DNA of 64,000 bases from assembly GCA_036172245.1 (NCBI GenBank), contig JAYWIR010000003.1, forward strand, positions 434,001 through 498,000, read 5' to 3'. This stretch comes from Raillietiella orientalis (taxonomy: Eukaryota). The position numbers and the translations under genes were made by a program. This document shows positions 11,645 through 64,000 of this stretch, piece by piece. Below the pieces are notes generated by a model. That model saw only the letters and a list, made by a program, of their open reading frames with translations, searched no databases and was not told the origin of the DNA. Position 1 is the stretch's first letter. Every line of letters begins with the position of its first letter.

Positions 11645-11666
11645 ACACACACACACACACACACAC
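11645..11666 (+). repeat. (AC)n microsatellite at the GC/AT compartment boundary
   Basis: acacacacacacacacacacac. Confidence 0.9.
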
Positions 11667-34512: not shown

Positions 34513-36013
34513 ATGCATAACTTACATAGATTACGTTGTGGGTTCACGAAAATATGTAAGACGCATTATATCCCAATCTTGTGGCAAAGTTCAGTAGATG
34601 GTCCCATGACTCTTTATAAGCAAAGAATTGTTGATGGAGAATTGCTTCCGGATGAGCAGCAAGAAAAGGTTTTACATCTATTGCAGCAGCTTCATGAAGA
34701 TCTGCTTACTTACAATTCTAAGCAATCACCCTTCAGGAAGACCTTTTTATCCTTATGGAAACAGAAAACTCCAAGAGGACTTTATATACATGGAACTGTT
34801 GGAGGAGGAAAAACAATGCTGATGGATCTGTTTCACAATGCATCTTCCATATTGGCCAAACAACGCACTCACTTTAATCAGTTCATGCTGAAAGTGCATC
34901 AAATGAACCATCAAATGAAAATGCAATCCAGACATATTCGAGGATATGACCCTATCCCTCAATTAGTAAATCAACTGGCTCAGTGCTGGCTTCTATGCCT
35001 TGATGAATTTCAAGTAAGTAGGATTGCCCATTTATTCACATAGTGCATCCAGGTTACAGATATTGGAGATGCTATGATCTTAAAGAGACTTTTTACTCTG
35101 CTGTTTGAACGTGGTGTCGTTTTAGTAGCCACAAGCAACCGAGTCCCTGATGATCTGTATTTGCATGGCCTCCAACGCAGTCAATTTTTACCATTTATAC
35201 CTTTGCTCAAAAAACATTGTCATGTGGTTAGTTTGGAACCAGGAATAGATTACCGCCGTCGTTTTACTGATAAACAGCAGTTTTATTTTGTGTGAGTATT
35301 AGAATGACTAGCATTTTAAGTCCTTACGATTACAGCAAAAGTCCAACCAGTGAACATCACTTAAACATGCTTTGGCATTTCCTTGTATCACAGGAAAATG
35401 ATATTGCTCGTCAGCGTACTTTAGCTGTTTGTGGGCACCATGTCACTTTGCAACAATGTTGTGGTGCATTTGCATATTGTACATTTGCGGAACTTTGTGA
35501 GCAGGTAAGGATTTAAAAGTTTAATCAGATGACAGCATCTGGTTCATAGCCTTTGGGAGCAATTGACTATTTGCATCTGTGTCAGATCTTTCATACTGTT
35601 ATCATTAGAGACATCCCTCAGATGACAGCATATTCAGTAAATTCAATGCGTCGTTTTATTACTCTCATTGACATATTTTATGATCAAAAGGTGTTACTTT
35701 GATCATTAGGAGTGCCTTCTTAGACATTTTTAGGTACGAGTAATTTGCTTAGCACAGGTTGAACTCTCCGAACTCATTACTACACACATTCAGTTGAGTA
35801 ATGAACCTAATCAAATGCAGAGAGAACTGATGGATGATCTCCAGATACAGAGATCTGTATGTTATTTTTAGTATTGCAGTTTGATTTTAAGAGTTTTAGG
35901 AATGCATGTTTGGGCAAGAAGAATTATATGCAGCAGAGCGTACTGTATCTCGTTTGTATGAAATGCAAACAGAGGATTATCAGGAAAAGTGGAGGAAGCA
36001 GCATCAGAGATAA
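34513..36013 (+). CDS. AFG1L: AFG1-like mitochondrial ATPase (LACE1)
   Basis: [21 protein letters not shown] (Walker A), [18 protein letters not shown] (Walker B), [33 protein letters not shown]; stop at 36011-36013. Confidence 0.96.
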
Positions 36014-40765: not shown

Positions 40766-44000
<3,235 letters not shown>

Positions 44001-47000
44001 ACAGCATGTATGTGTGTTTAATATTGCTTCCATTACTGAGATCTTTAGTGTTGATTTCTCACATTAAAGTGATGGTGCTTCAGAATATTAGTGAGACCTG
44101 TGTTTTTCAAAAGAGGTGTACTGTAGTGGATATTTGAAATCGATACACTTCCATACCATCTTGGCATCAACTTTGATTGGGTAATTATCACATCAGCTGT
44201 GAACGTAAGCGTGCATCCAGCCTGAGTTCTAAAGTTTTATCTGTTGAAGTGAGTGAAATTAATTGTTTAATGAAAAGTGTAACTTTCAGTGAATTGAGTA
44301 TTATACAGTGACCGTTGTTTCCATTTTGAAATATTGCATTAGTGAAAGTAAAGTTTTCTGGCTTCAATTTGCTACACAAATAGCATGTAGAAACAAGAAT
44401 GCAATGGTGTTGTTGAATATGTGGGGGCATAAAGACTTGGCCTTGAGTAATAGCGATAGGAATGGATTTTAATCTCATAAAGTATCAATGTTATTGACAA
44501 TAATTTGAAGTTTCCAACTAGCAAAAATTACTAGCAATAATTATTTGAAGTAAAGCAGCATTATGCTCGTTTATCACATAATCTTGTTATTTTGCAATGG
44601 TCAATCCAGCATTTTTGTTATGTTACTGTTCACATGCATAGTAGTTCAAAGTGAATACATTAAGGAGTAGGTGCAAAAATGTAAGAAATCCTGTTGCTAC
44701 ATATATGAATTATGTTAATATAGCGTGTTCCTTGCATTTTTTGGAATAAACTTCACCATGGATTGGATTTTCTCATGGTGTTCACATATATTAGTTATTA
44801 ATTATAGGAAGTTTTCCTTAGTCAAAACCCTAGTCTTTGAAAGTGCCATATGTTTGTTCTAAAAGTTAAGTTCGAAGTTGTTTTCCGATTTTTTTACATT
44901 GTATTTTTGATGCTTGCAAGCCATAGTCCCTTAATGCTAATTCAGTTCGAGTTGGACTGCAATAAACCAGATTGTTTTTAATTTCATCCTGCAAAATATA
45001 CACCCTGGGTATCTTGATATTTTTGATAGTAAAATTTTTTGATCACTACCATGTATGCATTTTTCAAACTATGGGGGTTGCTCATTATTCAATAAATGTA
45101 TTAGTAGAAAGTGGATTTCTTACAATTGTACTAACTGTTTTATGAGTGCTAGTATAAGAGTCTGTCTTTTTACTAGTTGTGTTGGTTATTTTTTACAAAA
45201 AAATAACATCTATATATAGTATTAGGAGATATGGGTTTAATTTTAGATTGTTAAGGGTGAAGCAGATTTACAATCAAGGTAAAAGTGATGAATAATAGTG
45301 CACACAGTCATTTATGCAAATGTATGAAGAAAAGTGCAGGCAAACCAATGTGGAATCAAAGCAAAATCCAAGAAGCATTCTTAGGTTCCAAAAAGAGGAA
45401 TTAGAAAAAATGAATCGATTCTGAAGACACATTGTAGTCTAGGAAGCAGTTCTGGCATAAGTTGACAATCTACATAGAAACTCTTGGCTTTCAACTCTTG
45501 TTATCTTAGAGCAAACAAAGTGATCCCTCTCCAGGCATGAGAGGAACAGACTCCGAGTCCTTCCTGGATTCATAGGGCAGACCCCTTTCCTGGGGTGCCC
45601 CCTATTTGAAGAATTACACACACACCCTGTAGGTGACCACAGGTGGGATGGCATGAAACAACAGTGTTAAAGAGCCATGTGTGCTGTGAGGCATGTGACT
45701 GGCTCTTAATATACTTTGCAAACCAAAAAAAAGAAAATCCGAAAAAAAAAAAAAAGCTGGAAGGAAAAAACAGTGAAGCCAGAAGAAAAAAGAACCCAAG
45801 GATTTCCATCATCAATACTTTAGTTGAAGCTAGGAATATTTGTAACTCCACCACCATTACATTTTGACTTACAGTTCTCTGTTCATATCAACACATCCTC
45901 AACCCAACTGTCCATTCTCAACTATACATGATTCACAAAAGCTTCTATATTCACAGCAGTTTTTGCTTCAAGACATGAATCATATTTTCTAATCGAGAAA
46001 GGAACTAGAAGAAAAGGTTCATTCCCTTTGAGATTTATTTTCGAGAATTATTGTGTGCAAAAATTTTGAAAAAAATCCTACAATACCCACATCTGTGCAT
46101 TCTTAAGCAGAATATGCACAAGCAAAACTAAGCATAAGGGCGATAGTGTGTTCTAATAAGTGTTGTGCTAGGAATTGGTTTTCAAAACAGACAACGCATC
46201 TGAGCTAGAAATAGAATAAAACTTTCACCATAAATTGCACAGAACAGAATGAATGTTGATAATTTCCAAACCTCTAGGACCTGCTCAGATTTTCATTTTT
46301 TTCAGCTTCCATTGATGTACAACACTGCTGTAAGGGTGATGACTGCACTGTAAAGTGATGAATTTTGTTTTTAAAAAAAAAATCATAAACATGCCTTTGT
46401 CCGACCCTGTTGCCTTGGTTAACTGAAATACCACATACAGAAGGATCTCCAAGCCGCTCGTGATTTTCAGAGTCCATGAGGTAGTTTTTAACTGTCGAAA
46501 GTTTTCTCATTTCTACAAATACATTCTTTCGAACATGGGGCTATATCTTGTTTGTTTCGGATATTTGGACATATGTTATATAGCAATCCATTAATAGAGA
46601 TGCAAATTTCGGCTAGGTGACAATTCGCAGAACGTTGATAAAAACGGGACCTTGCGCCCTTTCTGAACATGGAAATTGTACTTCGAAATTGAATCTACCC
46701 CAGAAATAAAATAGTTATCCTATTAAAGTAAAATGAAATGGACTTAAATAATGAAATCACGTTGCTACTGATCAGTGTTGCAGCAGAATATTATCAAAAT
46801 GTCAACATCAAGTTCCCAATTTGCGTGATGAAGACCAAGCCTATATCCTGTCTATTTCGGAACTTCTAGAAAACGGCCGCTTTAGGAACTTCCTTATAGA
46901 ATTTTTCTAAAATAACGGGGGAGCCTAGTGACATCACAAATGCTGAACTTCTGAACTGTAAGGAAAACACTAAAAATGCTTAGATATTAAGTTTCACTAA

Positions 47001-50000
47001 TGAAAAATGAACAAGTTATCAACTGCAGCTTGGAGGAATGATAACAAGGGGGAAAAAAGCATAATTCGATACAGAATGAAGGCGAAATACCGACAACGGA
47101 GAGCACTGAACACAGGTGGTGATTGCTTTACAAAGAATTTCCTCTCCAGGAACTGATCGCACCAATAGCACAGTTTGGTGCGCGTCACCTTTCTGAGTGG
47201 ATTTTCGAATGATCCGTTCACTCATTGATGGAAGAAACAACATATACGTCCTCGGTAAAGTAAATAAGGGTAGGTAAATAGACCGACCCAACTGCTGTAT
47301 CTTGGTCAAACGAAGAATAAATAGTACAAAATACTTTTTTCCGCTTAACTCATGCGCAAATCACCTCAGTGAATTTTCATCTCTTTCCGCTGCTTAGAAA
47401 TTGCAATAAGAGGAACCAAGAGAAGCTACACGATGATGGCTTACCTAATTTCACCTTTCATCAAAACACACACAGGAAAAAACATTTACGTAAAAACAGA
47501 GATTTCGAGTGATCGCTTCGTACAAGCCAATGAGGATCTGACAAGTGGGCTTATACCTTGGAGGAGTGACGCAACAATAGAACCCGTATCCTTTAAAAGG
47601 ATGTCGTAGGCATATTGCAAGCAGTCGCTCGAGCCGAAGAGTGCGAAGCCCAGGTGCAAGTAGCCCAGGTTTGTACATTCTTGATGGGAGAGAGAAAAGG
47701 GATGAGGACAACTGGATAAGGGAGCAGATGAAAGAATGGAAGGCTACCTGTTCTTCCTTGAGCACGCGGCTGTCTCGAGAGGCGCTAACGACATGAGCTC
47801 CCAGAGACGGGGTTTTTCACGGTGTTCATTTGCCGTAGCCGCTTTATCATTCCTCCTCGTAGGCCATAGGGTTGCGCACGGGAAGGGGGCTGGCGGTTGT
47901 GCAGATAAGGGAACCGGCTCAAGAGGCTCAGTTTTTCGTTAAGCACCGGTAGTTGCGACACGGAAAGATTTAGAATTGTACATGAGTCGACCCTACCATC
48001 TGTGACCTGGGACCTGAAAGGAGGAACCCACTGGGAAGGAAGTGAGGTCCAGCTTCGGGGATTCGCCAAGCTAGAAAGAGAAATAATACTTATGGACTTC
48101 ATCTCTCCCCTCTTCCCCTTTCTCACAATACGATTGTCGGTAAGGGCCCCAAAGACAGGAGAGAGATGACGATGACGACACGAGGCTCTTCCTTTTCAAC
48201 CATGAGAATGAGTCAGAGGCACACTCCTCTGACCTGGCTGGTGAAGTAGCGCGTAGAGAGTCCTTCCCAGAGATCTGGGAGCAGCATGTGAGGGGAAGAC
48301 TGTTCCGAAAAGACAGGGACAGGGTGACAGAAACATCAGTCCCGTTCTGAAGGACTAAGGAGGAGGGCTTGAGGCTCCGGAAACCGTGGAAATGGGGGGA
48401 ATAGGGATCAAGAACCCATTCCCGGTCCGTTCATGGAAGAGGATGGAGGAACATCCCTTCCCGATTTTTCAAAAGGCATTGATGAGTTTCTAGTGAGAGG
48501 CAGAGAAGTAATGAGAATGGAGTGGGGAGGAAAGAGGAGGGTTAATGGTGGGCGTCGTGTATTTCGTCCAGCTTTCATCTGTGCTCCGATGCTGTGCTGA
48601 CAGGATCAGAAGGCGGATCTACCTCGAGTAGTAAGTGCACAGAAGGCGCAACGGATCGAGGTTTCGTTGCCATCCTGCAGCTGGAAGATCCCTCTCATTT
48701 ACGCTAACGATTTACGCTACGCTAAACCTCCCTGGAACAAGATAGGAGCACTGGGACTGCGTTTTCTTGCTGCCAGAAGACAGCGACGCTCCAGGAAACG
48801 GCTGAGAAAGCACAACTTTCTTGACTCGTGAGGTGGCTAGCAAAACAGTTCGGAGGAGAGAGGAACTCCCTAACACGTCCATCTCTTTTGCTTCCTCTGA
48901 GTACCACCTCTGTCCCTTTACAAACCATTCTTGGTCAGGTTGCAACTGCGACGTCCTCCATGCGAGGACATAGCGGACGGATGACTATCCCGCGACCTAT
49001 AGTCATCATTAACGATGCTCGCATGTGCTGTTTTCGTTCCGAGACATCTAAGTGGGTTGTTTTCCAGATAAACCTTTACAAAAAGTGGCAGACAGAGAAT
49101 ACGGAAGGCGCGAAAAGGCAAGAAGGACAGGAGTTTCCAAAACTCTGAGGGATGTAAAATTATGTGATCGTCTGTTCACATGCAAGAGAAATGAGTAAGA
49201 GAGGAAGCAGAGATATCTTTGGTTCTAAATGCTTCGTTTTTTTTCAATAGAGCTGCATCGAGGGAATCCATGGATAGTGTTCAAACACACGGACTCGTCT
49301 CTCATTGGTCTCGGCAAGCCTAGTCGCAGTGTCAAAGGAGTCAGTGTGGCTTGATGTAGTAATGTGGATACCAGGAGTCAGCGTCTGCTCAGAGCCATTA
49401 CAGGAGAAAGGATCTCTGCACGATCGAAGGAAAGCACCCTCTCCCCCAAGAACTCAATTAGATGCGGACGTGCACGCCAGATCAGATCACAGATCTGCCG
49501 GGCAAATCAGCATATTCTCACAAGTCCCCACACGGTAGGTGTGATGGAAAAGAGAAGAATAGGACCCTTTCAAGAGAAGGCAAACGAAATAGTCATTGTG
49601 AAATGCTCGGTTCCAGACGAGAAATGCATGTATGTTGTGACTGCTGGGGAACTCCGAGAAACCAGGACGAATATCTGAAGATCGAAAGCCGATGATGCCT
49701 CCTGCCAGAATCACTCACGTCTAGAATCCAGGGTGCACATACGAAATACTCTGTTGAAGGAATAGGGAGGACTGATAATGATATTAGCAATGTTTTACTG
49801 GATGATAGCGTTCAGAAGTTGTGCATGGATAAACGCTTTCAATTTGCATGAAAGCTTTTTAGTAAAGGAGGAGGAGGAGCAGAGAGAATCTGCGACAAAA
49901 CTCTGTGTACTCCCCATGAAAATTGATGAGCTCAGATCCCCTATGATCACGGAAAATGGAAGTTTTAAAAAGCACCTAACGTACTCATTTTGGATGCAGT

Positions 50001-52672
50001 TTTTTATAGAGGAAGAACTGCGTAACAGTTGATGGAAATATAGTCCGATATTATATGTTATGATTCGACACAGTTTAATCCAATAATTTTCCAATATCGT
50101 GATTTTTTATTTATCGTAACATCGGTAGCAGAGTAAAGCTCTGAATAGTAACGGCTCCATGGAGCATTTGAAAGAGCACTGGATATTTACACTTTCAAAC
50201 TATCCCCTCTTCACATCTGTCTTACTTTCCTATTCACTGGAAGCAGTATTGCTCATCAGGCTTCTGTGATGTGGGCTTGCCAGTTTGGCTCAGATGGATC
50301 TTATGGGGAAAATTCTCTTTTGTTTTCTCTGCGTCTCAAGATCGGACAGTTCTCAAGTTGAGCTCAACAAACTTCTAGTTTCGACACAAACATACCAATA
50401 ATAATCAGCTTCCTAAGATTCGATCTGCCCTCACGTTGGCAAGTGTCGTTTCTATTTGCATCTTTGTTTTGAAGGCCGATGGATAGATCACGCTTCCATC
50501 CTCTCGTGCTGCATTTTCCTTAGGATCTGAATCCCTGGGAACTTTCGCTTCCATAGAAACCGAACAACAAGTATATATACCTTTTCCACATGATAAATAT
50601 AAATTAATAATGAACCGCAGTTCCTCAGCTTCATTGTTAAGGAAAATCCCCGAGAGGTATAAAGGTATGGTCTGATGTCATTTGATGAATTCTTTCTTTG
50701 TGCAGTGCTGTGACAACAATAATTTTTTTTTTTAAGTACAAATATTGGTTCTGCTGTTTCCTTGGCGACAGCACAAAGAAAATACTGTAATACTTTCGAA
50801 AATATGAAAGGTAAGAAACGCTTTCTGGAAAGATACATTACTTGTAGTATATATATATATATATATTCCTAGCCTTAAATACTTTCCTAAATGGTTGTAT
50901 ACCTCAGAGTTACATGTTCTCCATGCACAATGATGATGGTATTAAGGAATTTCATGAAAGCGAAATAGCAATTAATGGACAAGAATATGATAAAAAGTTA
51001 CTGTTTTTTTTTTTTTTTTCCGGCTCAACGTTGATACAGGATCCACAGTTATGTAGGATCAGGAAGAAAGAAAAAAGTAAATTTACGTCAGCTGTTTTTG
51101 ACTAAAAGCCAAACTGATGCAGATGCAGTGGAGCATTCAATTTTTCGATTTTTACTCTCAAGACATTTTTAGAGCTTTGAATTTTCATTTAGTTATTCAA
51201 GACTGCTCCCCTAAACGTCCCAAATTCTACAGTTGAAACACATCAAATTGGAATTGCTGCAAACACAGCAAAATGTTTCAGACTTTATCTTCGACAGAGG
51301 TTTTGTTACTCAAATATTTTGCAAAGGGATGATTTCTTGCTTTTCGGGATTATGCGTGCGCTAAGGTTTGAAAAGGAATGCCAGTGAATCTTTTGAGTGG
51401 CTTTGTTCCGAAAGAACCTTGTGAGATCATTTCTGCGATGTTCTATCGCATGCTGCTGATACATTATTTGTTCCTGGCTTGGCTGATATTTACATTATTT
51501 TGCAATTATACGAGTACGTCTCGGATAACTTCGTCGAGCAAGTTGCACTTAACAGCTGTTGCCTTTTCTGCTGCGGAAAGTGAGCCGTCCTAGTGGCCGT
51601 TGGGCACCTCGGTGAATTTTCAAGCTAAAGTGCTTAAATTTCTGGAAACCTTGGAGCATGTAAAATTGGAATGAGGAAGAAGAAATGGAGGCGGTTGATG
51701 TTAGATTGCGCTCAGATGTTTACATCAGCGATGTCTCATTCTCATTGAGAATATGGAATGGCGTTCTCCATTCGTACTTCAGATGAGGGGAAGCGGATAT
51801 GGCCTTGCAGGCTATCCAAGTTCTGCTGCATCCACTTCAGCAGTACACGAAAAATCAATTTTTCATTTTTTTTACAGATACTGATCGTGAAATCATAATC
51901 TCCTCAAATCATAGCACTTCTGTGATTATTTTACTGTTTTTCGAGCTTACGATCAATTATTCCGTTTGCAAGTATATCAATGTTGAGTGGACAAGAACAA
52001 CAAGAAAGGAGCTAAGGGAAGCTCTGAATAATGAAGAGACACTTTTGAGCTCGGCCACAGAAAGCAAAGAAAATTGTGTGTTCAGTTGTATGGAGTTATC
52101 TGTGAACCATGTAGTATGCAAAATTTGTCTGTTTTTTTAAAGCAATCCTTATAAAATCCTGATCTTTGTACCATTATCTTGGTCTCATGCTTAAATAATA
52201 CAGAGTTTTGGAAGAAAATCGTTTAGTGTATGATCCTTGATTTACTATGGAGATCGTTTCTGAGAGAATTCTGCTTTAATAAGTTGAAACTATTCATAAA
52301 TCACCATGGAATCTAAGATATGAAGTTCTAAAGCGTGTCCCAAGGACACTCCCCCTTCACGTTTTTCTCAGAGAGGATGTATAGAAAGTATAAACATCTT
52401 TTAAATCAGTAAGATTAATCATTCGAAAGTCAGTTAAAACCAAATTTACCAGCATATAGAAAACATTAAAATAACTTGTTCTCTATGAATATAAATCTCA
52501 AGTGTAAGCTACAAAACCGGGACCTGACTAGATGATTGAACTGTTTGAACTCTTATATTTGAACTGTGCATGAAACGCGGTTAAATATAAAAACTTACAT
52601 TTTCATAGGGAAACACTGGATAATTTTATGCACTCCCTGAAATAAAATTATGCTTATTAATTGTTTTTTTAG

Positions 52673-53000
52673 GTTCTGCAGACAAATTCACCGCTGTGTC
52701 CCTGCCCTTACTCTTTCAAGGCATTCGTGTATTCCTGAAGCAAATTGATTTGGTGCAAAACCAAACATTTGATGTGATGATGAATGATGAACATTGCTTT
52801 CGAAGCTGTTTACTTGCAGCTGCATTTGCTTTTGAAGCTTCTGTGTCGTAAACATTTTCAATTTCATTTTTTTTAGGCACACATTCTAGTGGTTTCATTC
52901 TAAAATTCCACGAACTAATCTCAATAGATGTCTCACCAGAGTAGGCACATTTTCGTCGCCAGTGTTGTGAATCATTTCTGTTCCTGTACAGTGTTTCAAT
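52673..53000 (+). pseudogene. Exon-like relic weakly resembling the retinoblastoma-family pocket A domain
   Basis: An AG-bounded open segment LLFQGIRVFLKQIDLVQNQTFDVMMNDEHCFRSCLLAAAF aligns by eye with the RB pocket-A pattern LYY.V...LK.E.....NFS.LLND.IFH.SLLACAL. The next exon-like block contains a stop. Confidence 0.25.
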
Positions 53001-56000
53001 GTCTTTATCGAGTTTTTGTTCAAATAGTGCAGATAAATCCAAGAACAAATGCATAAGAATATGTATGTGAATGTACACACACGCACACACACACGGAAAA
53101 AAATGGATTTTCTCAGCGTGCCTTCTTTCAAGATCGTGAATACGTCGGAGACTTCGAACCATGCTCTGTGATCTGAATAACCGGGAGTCGAAATTAACGG
53201 ATAATATGCAGATTTCAAGTTGTAAGCAATTATTTTCTTCTGTTTACTTGGCAACGTAATGAAGATCAGTACTTTAAGGAAAGATCGTTGACCACTCATG
53301 TTCAAACTCTTCAATGATTTATATTTTTTTAGTAAAAATTCTCAATCTATTATTATGTAGATGCACCCAACGCTATACTGTATGGAAAGTACATACAGAT
53401 ATTTAGGGAGGAAAGTCTCTTAAAAGAGGTGACAAGTTAATATTAGCATTTTGTACTAATACCGAAGACAAGCTACATCCAAGAGAAAGAGAGAAAAAGA
53501 AGGATCATCCCAGAACAAGAAAAATGGAATATACTGTCCAGTTTTAGCTATCCGAAGCGTATAGAAGCAAATTTCAGCAGATCAAAGACGAGAATTACAG
53601 GAAACAAAATCATGAATCGAACTCTTTTGTTTGTTTGATTTTCGAAGGTTGCTCATTTTAGCTCAGAATATATCCCAAATACTAATTTTTTTCAATTCTT
53701 ACTGTTTGGGTTCCAATTTCACACTCATGATGAAGTGAGATTAATAAAAAAAAACAAATAGGTTCTTACATCCCAACAGAAGAGATCCCTTGGATTATAA
53801 TAGTAGTTTATGAATCCTAGTGTACTGATGCAAATTACTTCAGTTTTGGTAATTCTAAAGAAAACGAGATAATAAATTACTTTTTGATTTGTGAAAATTG
53901 CTATTTAGCAAGTTAAACATGAAGTCGAGATTCAGCCTATATTAAAAAGGAGCACTGGTTTTCAGTGGCAAGCAATGTTTTTACTCATTTGGATTGGTAT
54001 GCAGCATTATTACTTGAGGATTCAAATAACCTTGAAGATTACACCGAAGATAACCTAACGCACTAATTGTATAGTCACAACTACTAATTTCTGTCTATAG
54101 AAACTATTGTTTTCAAAGCAATAAAATTGCCCATGGAACCGATTCCTACTTCATTCCATAACATCTCTGTAAAATTGCTACCAGAGTTTCTTTTATCTGG
54201 GTACTGACTAGCAACAAATACGTGATCAGTAAAACTAACACGTGTTCATGAGCAAGTTCTTTTTCTTGTTTTCAATTTACGGACTCTTCAGCATGCTTCA
54301 AAAATTTTCAAGTTTTAATAAACTGAGTGCATTCAGTAAATGCTAATGTTTTGCATCAGTGAATAACAGATTTAAGTCAAAAATCTCTAGACATGAATTT
54401 GCAAGATGCTGCTGCTGACCTTTAACTCAGTGAACGTGCACTTAAAACTTTTGCGTTTTATAATTTAGTTTCATTATTCAAACCAATGTTTGATTACTGA
54501 AGTGAAAGAGATCAAACTTATGAAACCAAAAACTGATGGATGAAACGAATAAGATTTATGACTGAAAAAATAGGTTTGCAGTTGTCGGTGATTATTTTCT
54601 AAGAAATCAGGGATAAATGATTTTTCATTCGAAAAAAAAAAAACATCCTGTTCCTTGAGAAATGAAAATGATTGTATGTTTAGTGAAAATTCAATCTTCA
54701 CCTGTGATTTGAAGAAAACTGGTGGATTTATAGATTTCAAGTTTGAGAGGCATATCTAGTGCTAAGGTGTACTTCCTTGATGTACATCAATCGTATGATT
54801 TGCGTATCTTTACTTCTTAGGTATCATCTGATTTCTTAACTTAATGACAGCGTATATTTCTTTTAAGATTTAAGATGCACATGATTTATGAACCAATTGC
54901 ATGTGTGATCTCAACTCGTTCGCGTAAAGGAATTGCAGAATCAACATGTGAACGGCAAGGACAATTGCGAGAACCATCAATCAAAATTTCGTTGCACATG
55001 CAGTGCATTGAGTGAACTCAAATTCAAGGGAATGCAAACAACATACTGGTGTGGTCAGTTTGCGTGATCAATTTTCGTAATTGCATTCTAATTTTGAGAT
55101 ACCTTAGGTTTTCAGTAGAGCAGTTATTATGTTCGTTGATTTTGAAAAATTTTCTTGCTCAGAAATTGCAATTATTCAATGCGAAGAAAACAAAGCAGCT
55201 AAATCTTTGATTGAACAAGAAGAAAAAAAACTTGCAAACCGAATGTAGATGGTCGACTTAATTGAATGCTGAAGAATAAAACCACAAATAATATTACATA
55301 CAAAAAAAATAGGTCACAGTGCCCAAAAATTCGATTCGAAAAATCGGTAACCCAACGCTAAGTGAATAAACGGTGAAAACTTAATTCTTCAAGAAAAATT
55401 TCCTGGGTTTTATGCAAAGCAATTTTATTTGCGGTTGCTCATCAAAAATTATGATTTACATGTCTGTTTAAGAAAACAATTCATTGTATGCTGTTCTTGT
55501 ATGGCAGTCTGACCTTTGTCAATTGAAGACGAGGAAATTCAATCGGTGAAACACTTTAAATAATAATAATTGTTAACCACCTAATTCCTAGATAAAAGCA
55601 TAGCTAGAATATTCTTCACAAAATGTGCCCCAATTCGATTTTAATTTAAAACTAGAAATTACAGAGAACACATTTAAATCTAAGGGACAGCTGTCAAACA
55701 GTTTAGCAATATACAAAATCAAAGAGAAGCTTAGCCAGGGAACCCTGGTAAACTGAAGTCCTCCACCCTCCACACTTATATTTTTCCAAGCCATCAGTAA
55801 CAAGGAAAAAGGCCTTTAAGCTAATTTCGGATAATCTCTGATATTTTCAGAGAAATTATCTCTGAAGTCGCTCTAAAAGTTAGTGTGAAAATGATTACAC
55901 ATGTAGTTGAATTTGTGATCACATTCCATTGTATAGGATTTTCTAAGACCATTTGAATAGTTGAATCTTTCTTAAAATGAAGCTTGCTAAGCGACATCAT

Positions 56001-56192
56001 GTGATCCTATATGCAATTGAGCAATCTAATTGCAATCTATTAATTACTTTATGCAAAATTTCTAATCCTTCTCTAATAATTTACTTCAAATGCCTTCAGT
56101 TTTTAAAATAAAAGTCTATCCTGCGAATATACATTTCATATTTATTGGAAAATTGTCTTTGTGAAATGTTGCTTGTTGCCTTTCTATTTCAG

Positions 56193-59100
56193 CTAATTGT
56201 CATCGAAAATATTTCTTAAGAAAACAGAGCACACCAAATTACAAGGAAATTGAAGTTCCCGATGACGATGATTACATATGTTAGTAGACATTATTTATTC
56301 ACACTTTTTATGTTTAAAAAATGCATCTTCTATACTTTGTTGACAAATCTTCATCTGGAATCTACTGAAGGATTCTTGATGTAGACAATTCGGAGAAAAG
56401 ACTATCCTCAAACTGAATTTTCTTAGGGGAAAACAATTACATTGTGGATACTAACTAATAGAATTGAAGAATATTTGATTAGCGTTTTCATCCTTGCACT
56501 TATGAAAAACTGAAAATTAATTGGGATTCAGGATTATCAAAAAATTATTCACCTACCAGTTAGAGAGAGTTAATCTCTCTCATCCCTAAGCGTTAAAATT
56601 TGATATGGTGAGATCTTTAACTTTGGAGACATGTATCCGTTGTAAATGTTCATGTATTCCTTTATCTTTGGGAAAAAGGAGCGATAAAACAGAAAAACCT
56701 TTTCGTTATCCTGGAAAGATGGAATTGAAGCACAATTAGAATTCGTTGTTATGTGTAGTGTTACTATGTACGCTCGTATTATTCGTAGATTTAAAACCAA
56801 GTTTGTTAGTATCTATTTATTTCATTATTCGCCGGGTATGTTTTCTTAAAAAAGTCAATAGGAACACCTAATTGTGTTCTGTATAAAAATGCAAAGCATG
56901 CGTTGATAGATATTTTACATTTTAGACTGTGATACTTGTGATAAGGAATATTACCATGGATGTGACTTCCATTTTTTGGTGCACATTCCGGATAGGAAAG
57001 CAAATTGTGTGAGTTGCAAATAGTTTTCCGTTTCGTTTGCTTCCACATGTTTCCTTTTCATTCTACATTTTTAGATGATTAGTAAAGATAGAAAACCAAC
57101 ATTCCAAGATACAATGCCAAGTTTTCTTCGTCTGTGTAAATCGAAAATCGGCATAGCCGGAAATGGTATATGGACAGAAATAGCGTTGCCATCTGGAATT
57201 GTCTTTGGACCTTACAGAGGGGAAATCAGCAAGAACCTTTCAATGTGCAAAGAACATGGATATGCCTGGGAGGTAAACAGTTATTCATTTGCTTGAATAA
57301 ACTATATAACAGTACAGATCAAAAGCGAAAAAAAAACACTCTATTACATTGATGCTTGGAACACTTCCAAGGCCAATTGGATGCGTTCAGTCAACTGTGC
57401 TAGATACTCTGAAGAACAAAATCTCATAGCATTTCAATTCAAACGCAAAATTTATTACCGGACCTTCAAAGTTATTCCTCCTCATGTTGAACTTTTAGTG
57501 TGGTATGGTAAAGCGTATGCAAAGTTTATGGGGATTACAAAATACCAAGGCTATGTGAAAAATCAATCCCTCCACGATAGTAAGTATAAACTTTGTGAAT
57601 AAACTTGAAAATATTTCCAAGTGAAGTGCTTTTCTAACTCAGTTATATCATAGCCAGCGAGAAACTTGAATACTTGGGTCATGTAGCAATTTGCAGTTAG
57701 CGCTACTTTCTGCAACTTAAATTTAATCATTTTGTTTCTTTGAACATATTCAGATCTTCTTATGGATAAGTTTCTCGTAGACTTAGAACAGATTGCGCTT
57801 GTTCGTCTAAATCTCTCTGTGTGAGTTTAATTTTTATACGGTCATCACGATTAATTCAGTAAACCCTATTTTTCGAGTGGTATTATTAAAATGAGGTTTA
57901 CGAACTCGTGAAATGAAATTGCGATTTTTTATCAGAGTTCATTTCTTTGTGAGTTAAAACATAGGTTTTGTGATTCATAGTTTAGATAGCCATGTGATTA
58001 GCTTTCGTAGCATTTCGAAATGTCGAAATCCTGCATTTTTTCCTAAACGATCACAGTTCGTCCATTTCGTCTTTTCTTTGTTAGGTTTTCTTCATAGTTC
58101 TCCTTCTACGAACAGATTGTCTTCGAGGTGCAAAGAACCTTTTTCATCTGGCAAAACCTTAGAATTTCGAATCCAAGTAAAGTACTTTGTGATATCTTCG
58201 TAATCCAACAGGGAACAGCGATTGCTCAAATTCAGTGTGTTTCAATACAAAACTCGCAAAGTGAATCAGAACAATAATCGATGCTTAACTTATCATTTTC
58301 AATAAAAAAGAACAAAAAACCGACATTTTGGTACTGTCAGACTAATTCAAATATACTTATGCCGGAAGTTATGTATTTGCTAAAAACAAATTGACTAACA
58401 ATATCCGATTCGACCGATTTCCATTTCGTTATCATTGATAATCTAAATCTCATGTAATCCAATCCAATAACTAATCTGTTTTTTATACTGTGCGAAGTTC
58501 TTCATCTTTCAATCCCTGGGAAATTCCAGGTGCGGCCAATCTTCCACATGCATTTTTTTAATTCAGTTGGTCATTCATTTCGGTTTTATGGTCTTGATCT
58601 AGAAACGTTCGCTTGCTCTCGACCTTTGGATAGCAATTATATGTAACTAAAGAACTTTAAAATCGATTTCACAAATAGATTGATCAATCTTATTGATAAA
58701 TCCCCAAATTTTGAAATCATTCATTTATCTCGTTCAAAAAGAGCATTGAAATGATGCATTCTTCTCTTTACCCAGAAAGTTGTCCTACACATGCTTGCAA
58801 AATGTGCTCATCATATTTTCTAGAAGGTCGCCATGTTCACAATCACTTATGCTTCGATCGTTCTCGTCTGGGAAACCTTGTCGGTAGGTAAATCACGTCA
58901 CAATCACAAACTCTGAAAGCTTAATTGATGTTCTTGCAGATTTATGTTCTTATCCGAAAAATGTTTCGGTTAGTGTTTCTATCTTTTGTCAATTTGTAAT
59001 TGTATAACTTAACATCGGAAGAAATAAAACAGTCTTCAAACTGTCATTCCAGAACACGAGGCCTGATGGGGTGCAAAATGCCGGTGCAAGCAAAAGTGTT

Positions 59101-61288
59101 GTCACTATTCCAGAATCTTTTAAAACTGTAGTTTTCAAACGCAACTTTAAGGTATTCGTTTGGTGGCATTTCAATACAAAGTAAATAATTTCAGGTTCTT
59201 GGTCACACAGTGCTTTTTTTTTTTTCTTTTTCAGAAAAGGTTATCCTAAAGCTAACGCAAAACACATCAGGACTGCTAACGAAGAAAGTGCCTATGGTCC
59301 TACTTTGTCAGTCAATACGTAAGTTCAGTTTTGCTCTTCGGTGCCATCTTAAGTCGGTTTTCTGATATTGCAGAAGCTTAGATCTTTCCAGCATACGACA
59401 AATTCTTAGCGATAAGAAATTCTTGTCTAAAAGTATTGACCACATGTTCCGAGTCTGCACGCTAACAAAGAATTTGGAAAACTTGAGGGCATTTATTCAG
59501 ATACTTGATCACTTTGCAGCTTTTCCTGGATTTAGCAAACCACAGTACCCACATGAAAAGTTAAGACCAGAGTGTTGCATCAAAGCATTCGGAAAGCAAT
59601 TGTCCTACGTAGAACAGCCCACAAATACAGACTATGACACACTTCCACAGAAAAGTTATTCACAGCAATTTAATAGTAAATGTTTCAATCCATCTAAAAG
59701 AACATCACGGCGAGTTTTACGCAGAAAGAGCTGCGTTACATCAAGGCACTGTATGGAGCTAAAGAGAAGACCGCTAAGTTTATGTTCCTCTCAGGACATC
59801 AGACATTATTTTTCAAGCAAAAAAATTCTTATTAAAGCTGTAGATTGCCCAAACAATCTTAGAGTATCAACAAAGATTCGCAATGAAAATATAAATAAAC
59901 AATTTTCCTATTATCTCAGTACTGAGAAGTACTGTTATAAAAGATCAAAGCATCTGATTATTGAAACAAAGAAAAACTCCAATATAAGAAAATATTGTAC
60001 GTATAAGAATACTGTACATCGATTTTCTCAAACAAATAATCTAACGAAGCACAAGAGAACGCACACCGGAGAGCGTCCGTTCAAATGCCAAGATTGTGGG
60101 AAGAGATTCTCAGGTTCAAATGACTTAACCAGGCACAAGAGAACGCACACCGGAGAGCGTCCGTTCACATGCCAAGATTGTGGGAAGAGATTCTTAGGTT
60201 CAAATGACTTAACCAGGCATAGGAGAACGCACACCGGAGAGCGTCCGTTCACATGCCAAGATTGTGGGAAGAGATTCTCAGGTTCAAATGACTTAACCAG
60301 GCACAAGAGAACGCACACCGGAGAGCGTCCGTTCACATGCCAAGATTGTGGGAAGAGATTCTCAGGTTCAAATGACTTAACCAGGCATAGGAGAACGCAC
60401 ACTGGAGAGCGTCCGTTCACATGCCAAGATTGTGGGAAGAGATTCTCAGGTTCAAATGACTTAACCAGGCACAAGAGAACGCACACCGGAGAGCGTCCGT
60501 TCACATGCCAAGATTGTGGGAAGAGATTCTCAGGTTCAAATGACTTAACCAGGCATAGGAGAACGCACACTGGAGAGCGTCCGTTCACATGCCAAGATTG
60601 TGGGAAGAGATTCTCAGGTTCAAATGACTTAACCAGGCACAAGAGAACGCACACCGGAGAGCGTCCGTTCACATGCCAAGATTGTGGGAAGAGATTCTCA
60701 GGTTCAAATGACTTAACCAGGCATAGGAGAACGCACACTGGAGAGCGTCCGTTCACATGCCAAGATTGTGGGAAGAGATTCTCAGGTTCAAATGACTTAA
60801 CCAGGCACAAGAGAACGCACACCGGAGAGCGTCCGTTCACATGCCAAGATTGTGGGAAGAGATTCTCAGGTTCAAATGACTTAACCAGGCACAAGAGAAC
60901 GCACACCGGAGAGCGTCCGTTCACATGCCAAGATTGTGGGAAGAGATTCTTAGGTTCAAATGATTTAACCAGGCATAGGAGAACGCACACCGGAGAGCGT
61001 CCGTTTACATGCCAAGATTGTGGGAAGAGATTCTTAGGTTCAAATGACTTAACCAAGCATAAGAGAACGCACACTGGAGAGCGTCCGTTCACATGCCAAG
61101 ATTGTGGGAAGAGATTCTTAGGTTCAAATGACTTAACCAGGCACAAGAGAACGCACACCGGAGAGCGTCCGTTCACATGCCAAGATTGTGGGAAGAGATT
61201 CTCAAGATCGAACACGTTAATAAAACACAAAAGGAAACGTGTCAATGTAAGAAAAGTATCAAAGATTAATAAATTTAGTGGGTTCTGA
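56193..61288 (+). CDS. PRDM9: PRDM9-like histone methyltransferase (SSXRD, zinc knuckle, PR/SET, post-SET finger, C2H2 array); 5' exons and KRAB not identified
   Basis: Phase-compatible exons: 56193-56279 ([29 protein letters not shown]), 56926-57008 ([16 protein letters not shown], knuckle), 57075-57272 and 57318-57579 ([30 protein letters not shown]...IYYRT...ELLVWYG), 58776-58883 ([19 protein letters not shown]), optional 59235-59318, and 59520-61288 (ZF array). Orthology rests on domain architecture, not a phylogeny. Confidence 0.85.
60048..61230 (+). repeat. 84-bp coding minisatellite: 13 complete C2H2 fingers, one terminal finger lacking the last His, and a partial leading finger
   Basis: The TGCCAAGATTGTGGG unit runs from 60086 to 61178 at exact 84-bp spacing (14 occurrences). 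Confidence 0.99.
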
Positions 61289-64000
61289 AGAGAATACAAT
61301 TTGAGATAATAGACTCGTTAATACAAGGTTTTAGAGGGATTACATTATTTCCTAATCTAAGCGGAATAAATAGATATTAAAGGAGCATCCTGGATATCTT
61401 CGGAGGGAATGAGATTTTTCTGAGTAAATTTTAATTAACGAACAAGAATGTACAGAAGTATGCAAATGCAAATGGAAGCGTATCTCTACAAGCATGTGAC
61501 TGAAAGATGCACAAGGGAACCAATCAGTTTTTTTCATGAATTTAGTACCAAGGATTATTCATAACTTAGCACAAGCCTGAGTCAGCAATGCTCATAATTA
61601 ATATATTGTTTGAAAGCAATTCCATAAATTGTTAGCAAGGCTTAATGCATTCCAAAGCCAGCTGCTCAAGAAGAATAGCATTAATGATATCTGCAAATAA
61701 TGGAAACCCACACAGTCATCCTGAAAGAAAGAATTGTATCCATTACTACCTCAGAAATAGCAGCGATGATTTCAAACTAATCTCTGCAGTCAAGAAGTTC
61801 ATCCAGCAAAAGCTCGAGTTTCTTTTTTATAATCACTTTTCGTCTTTTCTAACTGTTCTAAATATATTCAAAACTTAAATATATTCAAGTTTTCAAGAAA
61901 TTCCATCAATTTTATTTTGTTAGATGTTCCTTAGTTGTTAGATGAAATCTGTACAAGCAATGAAAAACAGCAGGATATGCCTTCCTTCAGAATAAAAATG
62001 TTTCAAGGTGAGGTACATTATGTTGATTACAGTGAATTACTTCGGCGGAGCAATTGTTCATGCTTATCGAAACATTAAATCATATTTGTCATATTGAGAT
62101 CAGTACTGGTTCATGAACTTACTGTTTGCGTGATCCACAACAAACGTTGCTACATTCGTTAAAGACCGAAGAAGCAAGAGTGTAAAAAATATTTTCGTTA
62201 GTTTGCAAAGTTGTAATGACTGCTCAATGATCGGGCTTGCAATCCCCTTGGATCAAAGGGATTCCAATTCCAGAGTCCTAGATATAGTATTGATTATGAT
62301 AGGTTTATGCTAATAAACTTTCAAAATTGTTTCAGAATCATATATGTTGCTTTTTTAATAAACCATGATTAAGAAATACTATCTGCTCACATAACTGACT
62401 TGAATTAAAATACTCGGGGTGTATACTTATTTTTATAAATATAGTGGCAACATAGCATCAATAAGTACAAATGGATATGAATAAATGAAACGATGGATGT
62501 TATAACTTCAGGTTTCTTTCTGTGAATGATCTCGTAGCAATATTTATACTACTACTTTAGAAGAATGATTGATTCATTATGCCAACTCACTGACTTTTGA
62601 ACTTTTATTACACATCAATAATGCAATGTAAATTTTTAACGAAATCATTCGATTTCTTGCTCTGAGTATCTGCTGTTCATTTATTCAAATCATGTATCCA
62701 CAAAGTCATGAAAACAGATGAGCTGTCCTCTCTTGGAAGCACATAGCAATTACTACTAAATTGAGAAGACAGCTACAAGGAATGCCTGTTCTGATTTCAC
62801 TGTGCAGCTTAATAAGCACTTTTGTGAATTCACTGCTGCCTTTTGACAATCTTCTTGATTATCGACAGCATTAATACTCAACCTATGTAAGTGAATATGT
62901 GCACAGTTTTAATGTTTTGTAGGGTATTCTTGCTTTCAATGTGTAATGGCAAAGCACCTCATGTGTTTTAAAGTCACCAAATTTCAGTGCTATTATTGTC
63001 ACAGTTTTCTTTTTGGGGAACCATTGCAATGTCTGCAAGTGTACAGCTGTCAGTACGTTTGCTCCTTTCTCAATATCAGAAAACAAATTCCTGAAATAAG
63101 TGATTATACAACGTTAGCGTACTTTGTCAGAAAATGTTCCAATAGCATGGTGCCTTTGAGGAATGGTTTGAAAGGGAACTACGGTTTCTCCAAATAAAAT
63201 TGCACTAGCCATCCTTGGGGTTCTCTGCAATAGAGACAAATTAAAAGCAAATGTGATGGATGTACATCAGCTAGGAAACTAGGAGAGCATTTCATTGAAA
63301 TCGTAGTTTGCTCAATAGTAATCAGTAGTAGATCGCATACCATATCGTGCACCACCAGCTATGCTTTGTAATCAAACTGCATCCATTTTTAGCAAATGCA
63401 GCAGCTCCAAAGTTGGCTATAGCTGTCGCATCTGTGGGGAGTCACAGGGAGAAAATTTCTCAGCCATTGGTCTGTGCACATTAGCACACTGAATCATTTC
63501 ATTTTCCTTTTCTAGATTTACACGAAATTCTACTTTTCATTTACAGATCGAGCTTAACAAATAAAGGTAGGAAAAAAAATTTCTTTGATCGTGGTTTATC
63601 TAACGATTATCTTCTCTCTGTTCAAAGAGGTTATGCAAAAATTCCAAGTTTCCAAATGTATCACAGAATTCTATCCAAATTGGAAAGAAATTTACACATC
63701 ATCTGCAAATCTATAGTGTCCATGAATTTCTTTTCAAAGTCCGAAAGTTTTGTGCAATTTTTCTATTGACTAATATGATTTTGGTATGGTGTTTGCAATA
63801 CGCCTTTCGTGAAAGTTTGCCTTGGCAGTCTCGCGAGTGAATATTTCAAACATTCTATACTCACGGAGCTTGGCAATGGAATCTTCTTTTGAACTCAACG
63901 GAAAATTGCCAAGCTCCGGAGTTTCTAATATGTTTTCAGGGTTGATTATATAATTGAAGTGAAGTGCCTTTGCGGAAGTGGAAGATCATGCATCTGCTAT

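What the first reader, a model, noticed from the sequence alone, without database searches (positions are those of the whole stretch)
56193..61288. Invertebrate PRDM9-architecture gene with a monotonous zinc-finger array predicted to read (GCN)n triplet repeats
Seen: SSXRD, knuckle, PR/SET, post-SET finger and a single-exon 84-bp minisatellite array splice in frame. The tyrosines equivalent to human Y276, Y341 and Y357 are present (FGPY, IYYRT, LVWYG). All 13 complete fingers have G(-1), N(2), D(3), and 12 have R(6) (one K); the other changes are at non-contact sites (S/L at -2, K/R after the first His). Established: in hotspot-directing vertebrate PRDM9 the array is homogenised but varies specifically at -1, 3 and 6, and the C2H2 code links Arg6 to G and Asp3 to C, with Gly(-1) weakly selective. 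Inference: this could be an active H3K4/H3K36 methyltransferase aimed at long (GCN)n microsatellites rather than a complex motif, i.e. a repeat-targeted chromatin or recombination-marking system. Alternatively it may be one allele caught just after a single finger swept the array.
Basis: partly seen in the sequence, partly recalled or inferred. Interest (0 to 1): 0.85.

Follow-up and report, generated by a model that had tools for sequence, protein, structure and literature searches.

The report
Arthropod PRDM9-like gene, uniform finger array
An arthropod gene of the PRDM9 family carries thirteen almost identical DNA-reading zinc fingers; this most likely reflects a very recent expansion of the repeat, or an assembly error, and is not evidence for a special system that targets GCN repeats.

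Summary
On the + strand, 56193-61288, GT-AG exons encode an SSXRD-like motif, a C-x2-C-x7-C-x2-H knuckle, a PR/SET domain and a Cys/His-rich post-SET segment. One long last exon encodes an 84-bp minisatellite of 13 complete C2H2 fingers. All 13 have G(-1), N(2), D(3); 12 have R(6) and one K. The SET domain matches solved PRDM9 best, and the three catalytic tyrosines align. Neighbouring genes point to an arthropod, probably a chelicerate.

No KRAB was found in the 56 kb upstream. Five units are identical in DNA, three others are identical, and they alternate as a 168-bp block, so the uniformity is explained by recent common descent. The share of diversity at contact residues is 0.12, the lowest of 32 arrays compared, which is the opposite of the hotspot-PRDM9 signature. 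(GCN)n binding follows the canonical code but is untested. A published case, the minke whale reference, showed that a diversity-free PRDM9 array was most likely an assembly artefact. Neither reads, RNA nor the genome was available. Invertebrate PRDM9 is already known, so interest is moderate.

The parts
56193..56279 (+). Exon with the SSXRD-like motif ([25 protein letters not shown]). It starts with 2 bases that finish a codon, so at least one coding exon lies upstream and was not found.
   Evidence: Borders cag|CT and AT|gttagt. tblastn aligns it to the SSXRD region of at least 25 of 157 PRDM9-like proteins (best P0014, 64% over 25 aa, E 0.001). These include P0138, P0135 and P0059, where Pfam places SSXRD at the same residues. 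Pfam SSXRD itself did not hit the 28-aa exon.
56926..57008 (+). Exon with the zinc knuckle, C-x2-C-x7-C-x2-H ([15 protein letters not shown]).
   Evidence: Splices in frame to the previous exon. Homologues show the same spacing, for example CEKCKNYFLESCPAH in P0114. Pfam gave no hit on the 27-aa exon.
57075..57272 (+). PR/SET domain, N-terminal half, with the GxG motif (AGNGIW) and FGPY (Y276 equivalent).
   Evidence: Pfam PRDM2_PR 1e-05, at 25.7 bits and just under the 27-bit cut-off. Best solved match is PRDM9 4c1q at 2.2e-06.
57318..57579 (+). PR/SET domain, C-terminal half, with [15 protein letters not shown] (Y341 equivalent) and LVWYG (Y357 equivalent). It follows a 45-nt intron that holds a stop codon.
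   Evidence: Pfam PRDM2_PR 3.5e-29 and SET 5.2e-06. Among solved chains PRDM9 scores 9.6e-23 against PRDM12 at 5.6e-16 and PRDM11 at 3e-11. Homologues skip the 15 intron codons.
58776..58887 (+). Post-SET Cys/His-rich exon ([24 protein letters not shown]). Its ligand spacing is not canonical.
   Evidence: In frame by GT-AG splicing. No Pfam hit and no significant tblastn match (best E 2.3). The assignment rests on position and Cys/His pattern only.
59235..59318 (+). Possible 84-nt cassette exon. Including or skipping it keeps the frame.
   Evidence: Borders ttcag|A and AC|gtaagt. No homology support.
59374..61288 (+). Last exon: about 207 codons of linker, a degenerate finger, 13 complete fingers, a last finger without the second His, then the TGA stop at 61286-61288.
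   Evidence: Open frame of 640 codons from 59366. Pfam zf-C2H2 gives 14 stretches at 2.5e-78.
60080..61171 (+). 13 complete C2H2 fingers in 84-bp units, all with G(-1) N(2) D(3), and R(6) in 12 with K in one.
   Evidence: There are 8 variable columns of 84, of which 4 are synonymous and 4 non-synonymous.
60248..60751 (+). Core of the array: three exact copies of a 168-bp two-finger block (units 3 to 8, pattern ABABAB), followed by two more A units at 60752-60919.
   Evidence: The pairwise difference matrix shows 0 differences among units 3, 5, 7, 9 and 10, and 0 among units 4, 6 and 8.

Best explanation
This is a real Prdm7/9-subfamily gene of an arthropod, probably a chelicerate. It encodes an SSXRD-like motif, a zinc knuckle, a PR/SET domain with all three catalytic tyrosines, and a C-terminal C2H2 array carried on a coding minisatellite. 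No KRAB is recognisable.

The array is very young. A two-finger (168-bp) block was amplified by unequal exchange or gene conversion. The fingers therefore share their contact residues because they share their whole DNA sequence. Nothing here shows that selection fixed those residues.

By homology (inferred, not shown), the fingers tether the SET domain to DNA, where it methylates histone H3. By the canonical code each finger would read 5'-G-C-N-3', so this allele would favour GC-rich tracts with triplet periodicity. That preference is a by-product of the allele's current state and may be transient.

The gene lacks KRAB and has the lowest share of diversity at contact residues of all arrays compared. 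It therefore resembles the 'partial' PRDM9 orthologues, which in vertebrates show no rapid finger evolution, more than the hotspot-directing form.
For: Family:
- The SET exons match solved PRDM9 best: 9.6e-23, against 5.6e-16 for the next subfamily.
- 7 of 10 looked-up best-hit clusters are named PRDM9 or PRDM9-like, and none is named for another Prdm subfamily.
- The SSXRD exon aligns to the SSXRD of homologues.
- Only 2 SET positions depart from a consensus of 80% or more. Both are conservative: I for V and M for L.
- Prdm11 is specific to vertebrates and Prdm7/9 is ancestral to bilaterians (PMC4760075, passages).

Host:
- The best named hits of the AFG1L and PRMT7 exons are horseshoe crabs, ticks, a scorpion and insects, at 38-46% identity.

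Young array:
- Five units are identical, three others are identical, and they alternate. Edge units differ more, and the flanking units are degenerate.
- Synonymous and non-synonymous variable sites are equal in number, 4 and 4.

Not hotspot-like:
- PoD is 0.12 and contact diversity is 0.15, against 1.8-3.6 in all 31 comparator arrays.
- This PoD lies below the ranges given for vertebrates and cnidarians, full-length or truncated (bioRxiv 10.64898/2026.09.07.749791, section 7 read).
- KRAB: 0 of 118 upstream ORFs hit Pfam KRAB. The best E-value was 1.8 over 3026 ORFs with a PRDM9-KRAB profile built from 23 sequences.

Precedent:
- Concerted evolution of PRDM9 fingers in invertebrates, and runs of five identical fingers in a rodent, are published (PMC2779102, passages).
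Against: - No reads, RNA or population data could be obtained, so the array sequence itself and the gene model are unverified.
- Vertebrate PRDM9 arrays are also homogenised in DNA yet keep diversity at contact codons. No comparator had fewer than 4 contact tuples, whereas this array has 2 in 13 fingers. A recent sweep of this extent is therefore rare.
- The finger type is uncommon: G(-1) occurs in 3 of 361 homologue fingers, N(2) in 5 of 361, and the tuple GNDR in 0 of 361. That could hint at selection or at a per-base consensus artefact.
- KRAB and SSXRD Pfam models also miss the 3 named invertebrate homologues tested, so failing to find KRAB is weak evidence of its absence.
- The SET sits on a long branch (0.98 against a median of 0.24) and its place in the tree is unresolved. 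No outgroup Prdm subfamilies were in the tree.
Confidence: 0.6

Rival explanations
1. Assembly or polishing artefact. The true allele has fingers with varied contact residues. Collapse of the repeat, or polishing with mis-mapped reads, pulled the units towards a consensus.
For: There is a direct precedent. The minke whale reference PRDM9 showed no amino-acid diversity between fingers (PMC5519329, Table 1 legend). After long-range sequencing of many animals, this was judged 'most likely a mapping artefact' (PMC8925151, Discussion passage). The finger tuple here is rare in relatives: G(-1) in 3 of 361 fingers and GNDR in 0 of 361. A per-base majority of mixed codons could produce such a tuple.
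Against: The array is not a flat consensus. It keeps 6 unit types. Three variants are linked (columns 56, 58 and 71) in units 4, 6 and 8, with partial combinations in units 2, 11 and 12. All units are exactly 84 bp with no frameshift. The window has no N in 64 kb, which suggests long-read contiguity, and 1.1 kb is easily spanned by such reads. The sequencing technology is unknown to me.
Confidence: 0.2
2. The uniform GNDR array is a selected, stable adaptation that aims an active H3K4/H3K36 methyltransferase at long (GCN)n tracts, as a repeat-targeted system for marking chromatin or recombination sites.
For: The catalytic tyrosines and the SET consensus are intact. Under the recognition code, Arg at 6 reads G, Asp at 3 reads unmodified C, and small residues make no contact (PMC12264921, abstract and passages). 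Thirteen equal fingers would therefore fit a triplet-periodic GC-rich tract. The only amino-acid change at a contact site is the conservative R to K.
Against: Identity extends to synonymous sites and to whole 168-bp blocks, so recent descent already explains the uniformity. No binding, expression or chromatin data exist. The window holds a single (GCN)n locus of at least 17 bases (5276-5298), and the genome was not available to count targets. KRAB was not found.
Confidence: 0.12
3. Two genes. The SSXRD-SET exons and the long finger ORF are separate transcripts, that is, a SET-only PRDM9 remnant beside a stand-alone zinc-finger gene.
For: No homology supports the link between 58887 and 59374. 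Phase compatibility of one donor and one acceptor has a 1 in 3 chance. The finger ORF has an internal Met (in SIDHMF) that could start a separate protein. No RNA run could be listed.
Against: Insect and other homologues are predicted as single SET-plus-finger proteins (P0001, P0017, P0020). The finger frame stays open for about 235 codons upstream of the first complete finger in AT-rich DNA, as expected of a spliced last exon. Both orderings, with or without the 84-nt cassette, are in frame.
Confidence: 0.1

Closest known systems
Vertebrate hotspot-directing PRDM9 (human, mouse)
   Same: It shares the SSXRD-like motif, the C-x2-C-x7-C-x2-H knuckle, and a PR/SET domain with the three catalytic tyrosines at the same spacing. 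A post-SET Cys/His segment follows. The C2H2 array is encoded as an 84-bp minisatellite in one last exon and homogenised by concerted evolution.
   Different: No KRAB was detected. There is essentially no diversity at positions -1, 2, 3 and 6: PoD is 0.12, against 0.33-1.0 reported for full-length vertebrate orthologues. A role in meiosis is untested.
Invertebrate PRDM9 orthologues (Nematostella, Lottia, Capitella in PMC2779102; 28 cnidarians in bioRxiv 10.64898/2026.09.07.749791; NCBI 'PRDM9-like' of Ischnura, Bacillus rossius, Zootermopsis, Priapulus, Branchiostoma)
   Same: It belongs to the same subfamily by SET similarity, at 54-57% identity over the whole domain. Concerted evolution of the fingers is also shared.
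   Different: The relatives examined here keep varied contact residues. Hetaerina has 6 tuples in 12 fingers with PoD 0.47. Bacillus rossius has 4 in 6 with PoD 0.56. Priapulus has 6 in 6. This array has 2 tuples in 13 fingers. Its SET lies on a branch four times the median length.
Partial PRDM9 orthologues lacking KRAB (for example teleost PRDM9-beta; 'XSZ' truncated paralogues of cnidarians)
   Same: The SET-plus-finger architecture lacks a recognisable KRAB. The share of diversity at contact residues is low. Such forms reach PoD as low as 0.158 in vertebrates and 0.202 in cnidarians.
   Different: In those genes the fingers are old and diverged at all sites. Here the fingers are 95% identical on average, the hallmark of active minisatellite turnover.
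Minke whale reference-assembly PRDM9
   Same: A reference-genome PRDM9 array with no useful diversity between fingers.
   Different: That case was later judged most likely an assembly artefact. Here the question is open, and the array retains structured unit variants.

Membership tests
Prdm7/9 subfamily (PRDM9 family in the broad sense) | PR/SET domain closest to PRDM9 among Prdm subfamilies | tested here: met
   Among solved chains, PRDM9 scores 9.6e-23, 1.2e-21 and 1.6e-21. The next are PRDM12 5.6e-16, PRDM14 8.2e-15, PRDM1 2.2e-13, PRDM2 2.6e-13 and PRDM11 3e-11. The N-terminal half also matches PRDM9 best. 7 of 10 best-hit clusters are named PRDM9 or PRDM9-like. A tree with labelled outgroup subfamilies could not be built, because the tree holds PRDM9-like rows only.
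Prdm7/9 subfamily | SSXRD motif upstream of the SET domain | tested here: met
   The exon at 56193-56279 aligns to the SSXRD stretch of homologues in which Pfam calls SSXRD (P0138, P0135, P0059). The Pfam model itself did not hit the 28-aa exon, nor 3 of 3 named invertebrate homologues.
Prdm7/9 subfamily | Zinc knuckle between SSXRD and SET | tested here: met
   The C-x2-C-x7-C-x2-H spacing is the same as in homologues. There was no Pfam hit.
Prdm7/9 subfamily | C-terminal tandem C2H2 array in one exon | tested here: met
   14 Pfam zf-C2H2 stretches lie in one open frame, 59366-61288. That it is joined to the SET exons in an mRNA is inferred only.
Hotspot-directing ('complete') PRDM9 | KRAB domain | tested here: not met
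   0 of 118 upstream + strand ORFs (46000-56200, at least 28 aa) hit Pfam KRAB at E of 0.1 or below. A profile of 23 PRDM9 KRAB segments gave a best E of 1.8 over 3026 ORFs of the whole window. The test is weak, because a divergent or split KRAB could escape, and the 5' exon or exons are unknown.
Hotspot-directing ('complete') PRDM9 | Catalytic tyrosines Y276, Y341, Y357 | tested here: met
   The residues align. The spacings of 65 and 16 residues are identical in chain 4ijd_A.
Hotspot-directing ('complete') PRDM9 | Finger diversity concentrated at DNA-contact residues (rapid evolution) | tested here: not met
   PoD is 0.12 and there are 2 contact tuples in 13 fingers, the lowest of 32 arrays. 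The array does show the other half of the signature, high unit identity.
Hotspot-directing ('complete') PRDM9 | Germline expression, allelic polymorphism of the array, and partner genes ZCWPW1/ZCWPW2 | not testable with these tools
   No genome is held and no sequencing run could be listed.

The most novel reading that the evidence does not exclude
In this arthropod, a catalytically competent PRDM9-family methyltransferase has become fixed with a homopolymeric array of GNDR fingers. The array reads GC-rich trinucleotide repeats such as (GCN)n, including CAG/CTG- and CGG/CCG-type tracts and poly-Ala coding runs. Histone marking, and perhaps recombination initiation, would then be directed to microsatellites instead of to a complex, eroding motif. 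That would be a way out of the hotspot paradox, because the target regenerates by slippage.
Probability: 0.1. Interest if true: 0.75.

Novelty: new member of a known kind. Interest (0 to 1): 0.38.

Why it matters
PRDM9 outside vertebrates is little studied, and arthropod members have hardly been described. The four literature searches here listed no paper on arthropod PRDM9 arrays.

If real, this allele would show a PRDM9-type minisatellite just after near-complete homogenisation. That is the extreme end of the turnover that drives hotspot evolution. It would also give a natural protein whose predicted target is a simple repeat, which is easy to test in vitro.

If it is an artefact, it is a second warning, after the minke whale, that reference assemblies cannot be trusted for PRDM9 arrays.

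Tried and rejected
1. Whole genome of the window: none is held. Copy number, paralogues, partner genes and genome-wide (GCN)n counts could therefore not be done.

2. Sequencing runs: none was listed for 56193-60100 and no RNA holder was listed.

3. Earlier findings of the scan: nothing for this place or sequence. Three notes on other zinc-repeat minisatellites did not bear on this case.

4. Alternative exon 59033-59151: it is open in one frame, but its phase does not fit the next exon, and the tested join ran into a stop. I had set the preceding exon's end two bases too far in that test and did not rerun it. The phase argument is by hand. The exon was left out of the model.

5. A second, decayed SET copy inside the linker (59473-59837): weak collinear tblastn matches suggested it (best E 0.11). 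It was rejected because the SET profile scores E 16 there, at noise level. Chance matches of E 7e-4 occur elsewhere in the window.

6. KRAB by regular expressions, by tblastn with 157 homologues, by Pfam and by a custom profile: nothing was found.

7. The ranking against solved chains was used in its place.

8. Zinc-finger motif predictors were not available. The GCN reading rests on the published code.

9. Supplements of the cited papers were not opened. These include Baker et al. Supplementary file 3B with per-site diversities, and the cnidarian preprint's tables, which are closed. They may hold other arrays with very low diversity.


Full report
**What is there**

TRF reports a single array at 60042-61204 with period 84, 13.8 copies, 96% matches and no indels. 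It lies in a 640-codon open frame, 59366-61288 on the + strand.

Parsing gives 13 complete C2H2 fingers at 60080-61171.
- Every finger has Gly at -1, Asn at 2 and Asp at 3.
- Twelve have Arg at 6, and unit 12 has Lys.
- The remaining amino-acid differences are T/K at the second residue of unit 1, S/L at -2, and K/R after the first His.
- A unit without the Cys pair precedes the array, and a unit without the second His ends it.

Upstream, six GT-AG exons join in frame:
- 56193-56279: SSXRD-like motif.
- 56926-57008: knuckle, C-x2-C-x7-C-x2-H.
- 57075-57272 and 57318-57579: PR/SET domain, split by a 45-nt intron that carries a stop.
- 58776-58887: Cys/His-rich post-SET segment.
- 59374-61288: linker and fingers.

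An 84-nt candidate exon at 59235-59318 can be included or skipped without changing the frame. Exon 1 begins in mid-codon and has no ATG, so the 5' end of the gene is unknown.

**Family**

Pfam finds PRDM2_PR at 3.5e-29 and SET at 5.2e-06 on the second SET exon. It finds PRDM2_PR at 1e-05 on the first, just below the cut-off, and 14 zf-C2H2 stretches on the last exon. It calls nothing on the short SSXRD, knuckle and post-SET exons.

Against all solved chains, the three best matches of both SET exons are PRDM9.
- For the C-terminal half the PRDM9 scores are 9.6e-23 to 1.6e-21.
- The next subfamilies are PRDM12 5.6e-16, PRDM14 8.2e-15, PRDM1 2.2e-13, PRDM2 2.6e-13 and PRDM11 3e-11.

In those alignments FGPY, IYYRT and LVWYG lie on FGPY, IFYRT and LVWYG of human PRDM9. 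The two spacings, 65 and 16 residues, are those of Y276, Y341 and Y357. These are the residues that Baker et al. and the 2026 cnidarian preprint name as catalytic.

An exhaustive HMMER search found 2015 proteins at E of 1e-3 or below. Of ten best-hit clusters looked up, seven are named PRDM9 or PRDM9-like: Priapulus, Ischnura, Branchiostoma, Rhinoraja, Microcaecilia, Mixophyes and Timema. Three are uncharacterised or named 'ZNF665-like', and none is named for another Prdm subfamily.

The SSXRD exon aligns to the SSXRD stretch of at least 25 of 157 homologues. The best is 64% identity over 25 residues. The set includes proteins in which Pfam calls SSXRD at those same residues.

Across 82 and 157 homologue alignments, only two SET positions depart from a consensus of 80% or more. 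Both changes are conservative. The domain looks constrained and shows no sign of decay.

Vervoort et al. place Prdm7/9 among the subfamilies ancestral to bilaterians and Prdm11 as vertebrate-specific (PMC4760075, passages). In an invertebrate this SET can hardly be anything but Prdm7/9.

A tree of 82 PRDM9-like SET domains leaves the window's sequence unresolved.
- It lies outside the 37-row clade that holds the vertebrate sequences named (SH-aLRT 95).
- It sits on a long branch, 0.98 against a median of 0.24.
- No outgroup subfamilies could be fetched, so this tree does not itself prove membership.

**Host**

The window also holds LDL-receptor class A, ankyrin, SARAF, GBBH/TauD, AFG1-like ATPase and PRMT7 exons.
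- The best named relatives of the AFG1L exon are horseshoe crabs, ticks and beetles, at 40-46% identity.
- The best named relatives of the PRMT7 exon are a scorpion and then insects, at 38-39% identity.

'Invertebrate' is supported. The host is an arthropod, probably a chelicerate, with no close relative in the databases.

**KRAB**

None of 118 + strand ORFs of at least 28 aa between 46000 and 56200 hits Pfam KRAB at E of 0.1 or below. A profile built from 23 PRDM9 KRAB segments scores no better than E 1.8 over 3026 ORFs of the whole window. tblastn with 157 homologues finds nothing upstream.

As a control, Pfam finds KRAB in 7 and SSXRD in 5 of 27 homologues, but neither in the three named invertebrate ones. 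'Not detected' is therefore weak evidence of absence.

**How unusual the array is, and why it is uniform**

Thirty-one PRDM9-like homologues with tandem arrays served as comparators.
- Contact-residue diversity is 1.8-3.6 in the comparators, and 0.15 here.
- The comparators have at least 4 distinct contact tuples, and this array has 2 in 13 fingers.
- The share of diversity at contact residues (PoD, the statistic of Baker et al.) is 0.12 here, the lowest of all 32 arrays.
- That is below the ranges the cnidarian preprint reports. Full-length forms span 0.29-1.0 in cnidarians and 0.33-1.0 in vertebrates. Truncated forms reach down to 0.158 (section 7).
- Arthropod and priapulid relatives keep varied contacts: Hetaerina 0.47, Bacillus rossius 0.56, Priapulus 0.56.

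The finger type is rare. Among 361 homologue fingers, Gly(-1) occurs 3 times, Asn(2) 5 times and the tuple GNDR never.

The DNA explains the uniformity.
- Only 8 of 84 columns vary among the 13 units, 4 synonymous and 4 non-synonymous.
- Units 3, 5, 7, 9 and 10 are identical, and units 4, 6 and 8 are identical.
- These units alternate as three exact 168-bp blocks.
- Differences accumulate towards both edges.

This is the picture of a minisatellite in which a two-finger block has just been amplified. The contact residues are equal because the whole units are equal. Concerted evolution of PRDM9 fingers in invertebrates (Nematostella, Lottia, Capitella) was described in 2009. So was a run of five identical fingers in Peromyscus leucopus (PMC2779102, passages).

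**The (GCN)n idea**

A recent review states the code (PMC12264921, abstract and passages).
- The residues at helix positions 6, 3 and -1 read the 5', central and 3' base of a triplet.
- Arg, Lys or His read guanine.
- Asp reads unmodified cytosine.
- Small residues do not reach the base.
- The residue at position 2 can make cross-strand contacts.

I could not test this. No motif predictor, genome or binding data were available. The window has one locus with at least 17 bases of (GCN)n, a GGC run at 5276-5298. The inference is reasonable as a statement about this allele. Nothing shows that the gene is 'aimed' at such repeats.

**The artefact risk**

[quoted passage not shown] A later long-range sequencing study found high diversity between repeats. 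It called the reference's lack of diversity 'most likely a mapping artefact' (PMC8925151).

Against an artefact here:
- The array keeps six unit types with linked variants.
- Every unit is exactly 84 bp.
- The 64-kb window has no N.

I cannot settle this. No run could be listed.

**Verdict**

This is a genuine PRDM9-family gene in an arthropod, which makes it a new member of a known kind. It carries an exceptionally uniform and evidently very young finger array.

The likeliest account is recent concerted expansion, about 0.6. Assembly homogenisation is next, about 0.2. A selected repeat-reader, about 0.1, and a two-gene arrangement, about 0.1, remain as minority readings, and the last can coexist with the others.

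Two hallmarks of hotspot-directing PRDM9 were tested and not met: KRAB, and diversity focused on contact residues. The claim of a recombination-marking system is not supported, although SET catalysis looks intact.

Noticed in passing
window 1-12000: This stretch is about 60% GC, against 33-43% for the rest of the window. It is still metazoan-like: it holds LDL-receptor class A and ankyrin ORFs, a 60-bp tandem repeat at 2336-2654, and a (GGC)12 run at 5275-5311. The switch falls near a CA-rich stretch around 11400-11700. It could be an isochore-like boundary or an assembly join.
   Followed up: partly
window 12435-43696: Neighbouring genes seen as exon-sized ORFs: an LDL-receptor class A protein on the - strand (12435-14133), SARAF-like (17128-17562, -), a gamma-butyrobetaine/TMLH-type dioxygenase (25607-26023 and 28988-29401, +), AFG1-like ATPase (34510-35043, +) and PRMT7 (42544-43230, +).
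   Followed up: partly
window 60028-61317, - strand: A 429-codon open frame runs antisense through the finger array. It repeats with the same 84-bp period. It is most simply a by-product of a repeat unit that has no stop in that frame.
   Followed up: no
window 59473-59837: Weak, collinear tblastn similarity to SET domains appears in frames other than the coding one (best E 0.11). A SET profile scores E 16 there, so I treat it as chance.
   Followed up: yes
P0017 (Hetaerina americana), P0001 (Bacillus rossius), P0003 (Priapulus caudatus): PRDM9-like arrays of insects and a priapulid show the vertebrate-type pattern. Units are 83-85% identical, and 47-56% of the diversity lies at the four contact residues. 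P0003 holds four SET matches in one predicted protein, which suggests tandem copies merged by annotation.
   Followed up: partly
window 57075: The first PR/SET exon begins exactly with ATG after its acceptor site. A transcript starting in the preceding intron could therefore encode a form without SSXRD and knuckle.
   Followed up: no
window 47019-48430 and 52716-53341, - strand: Several overlapping ORFs of 110-175 codons lie in the 12.5-kb gap between PRMT7 and the PRDM9-like gene. The two I scanned had no Pfam match. They may be repeat or transposon remnants.
   Followed up: no
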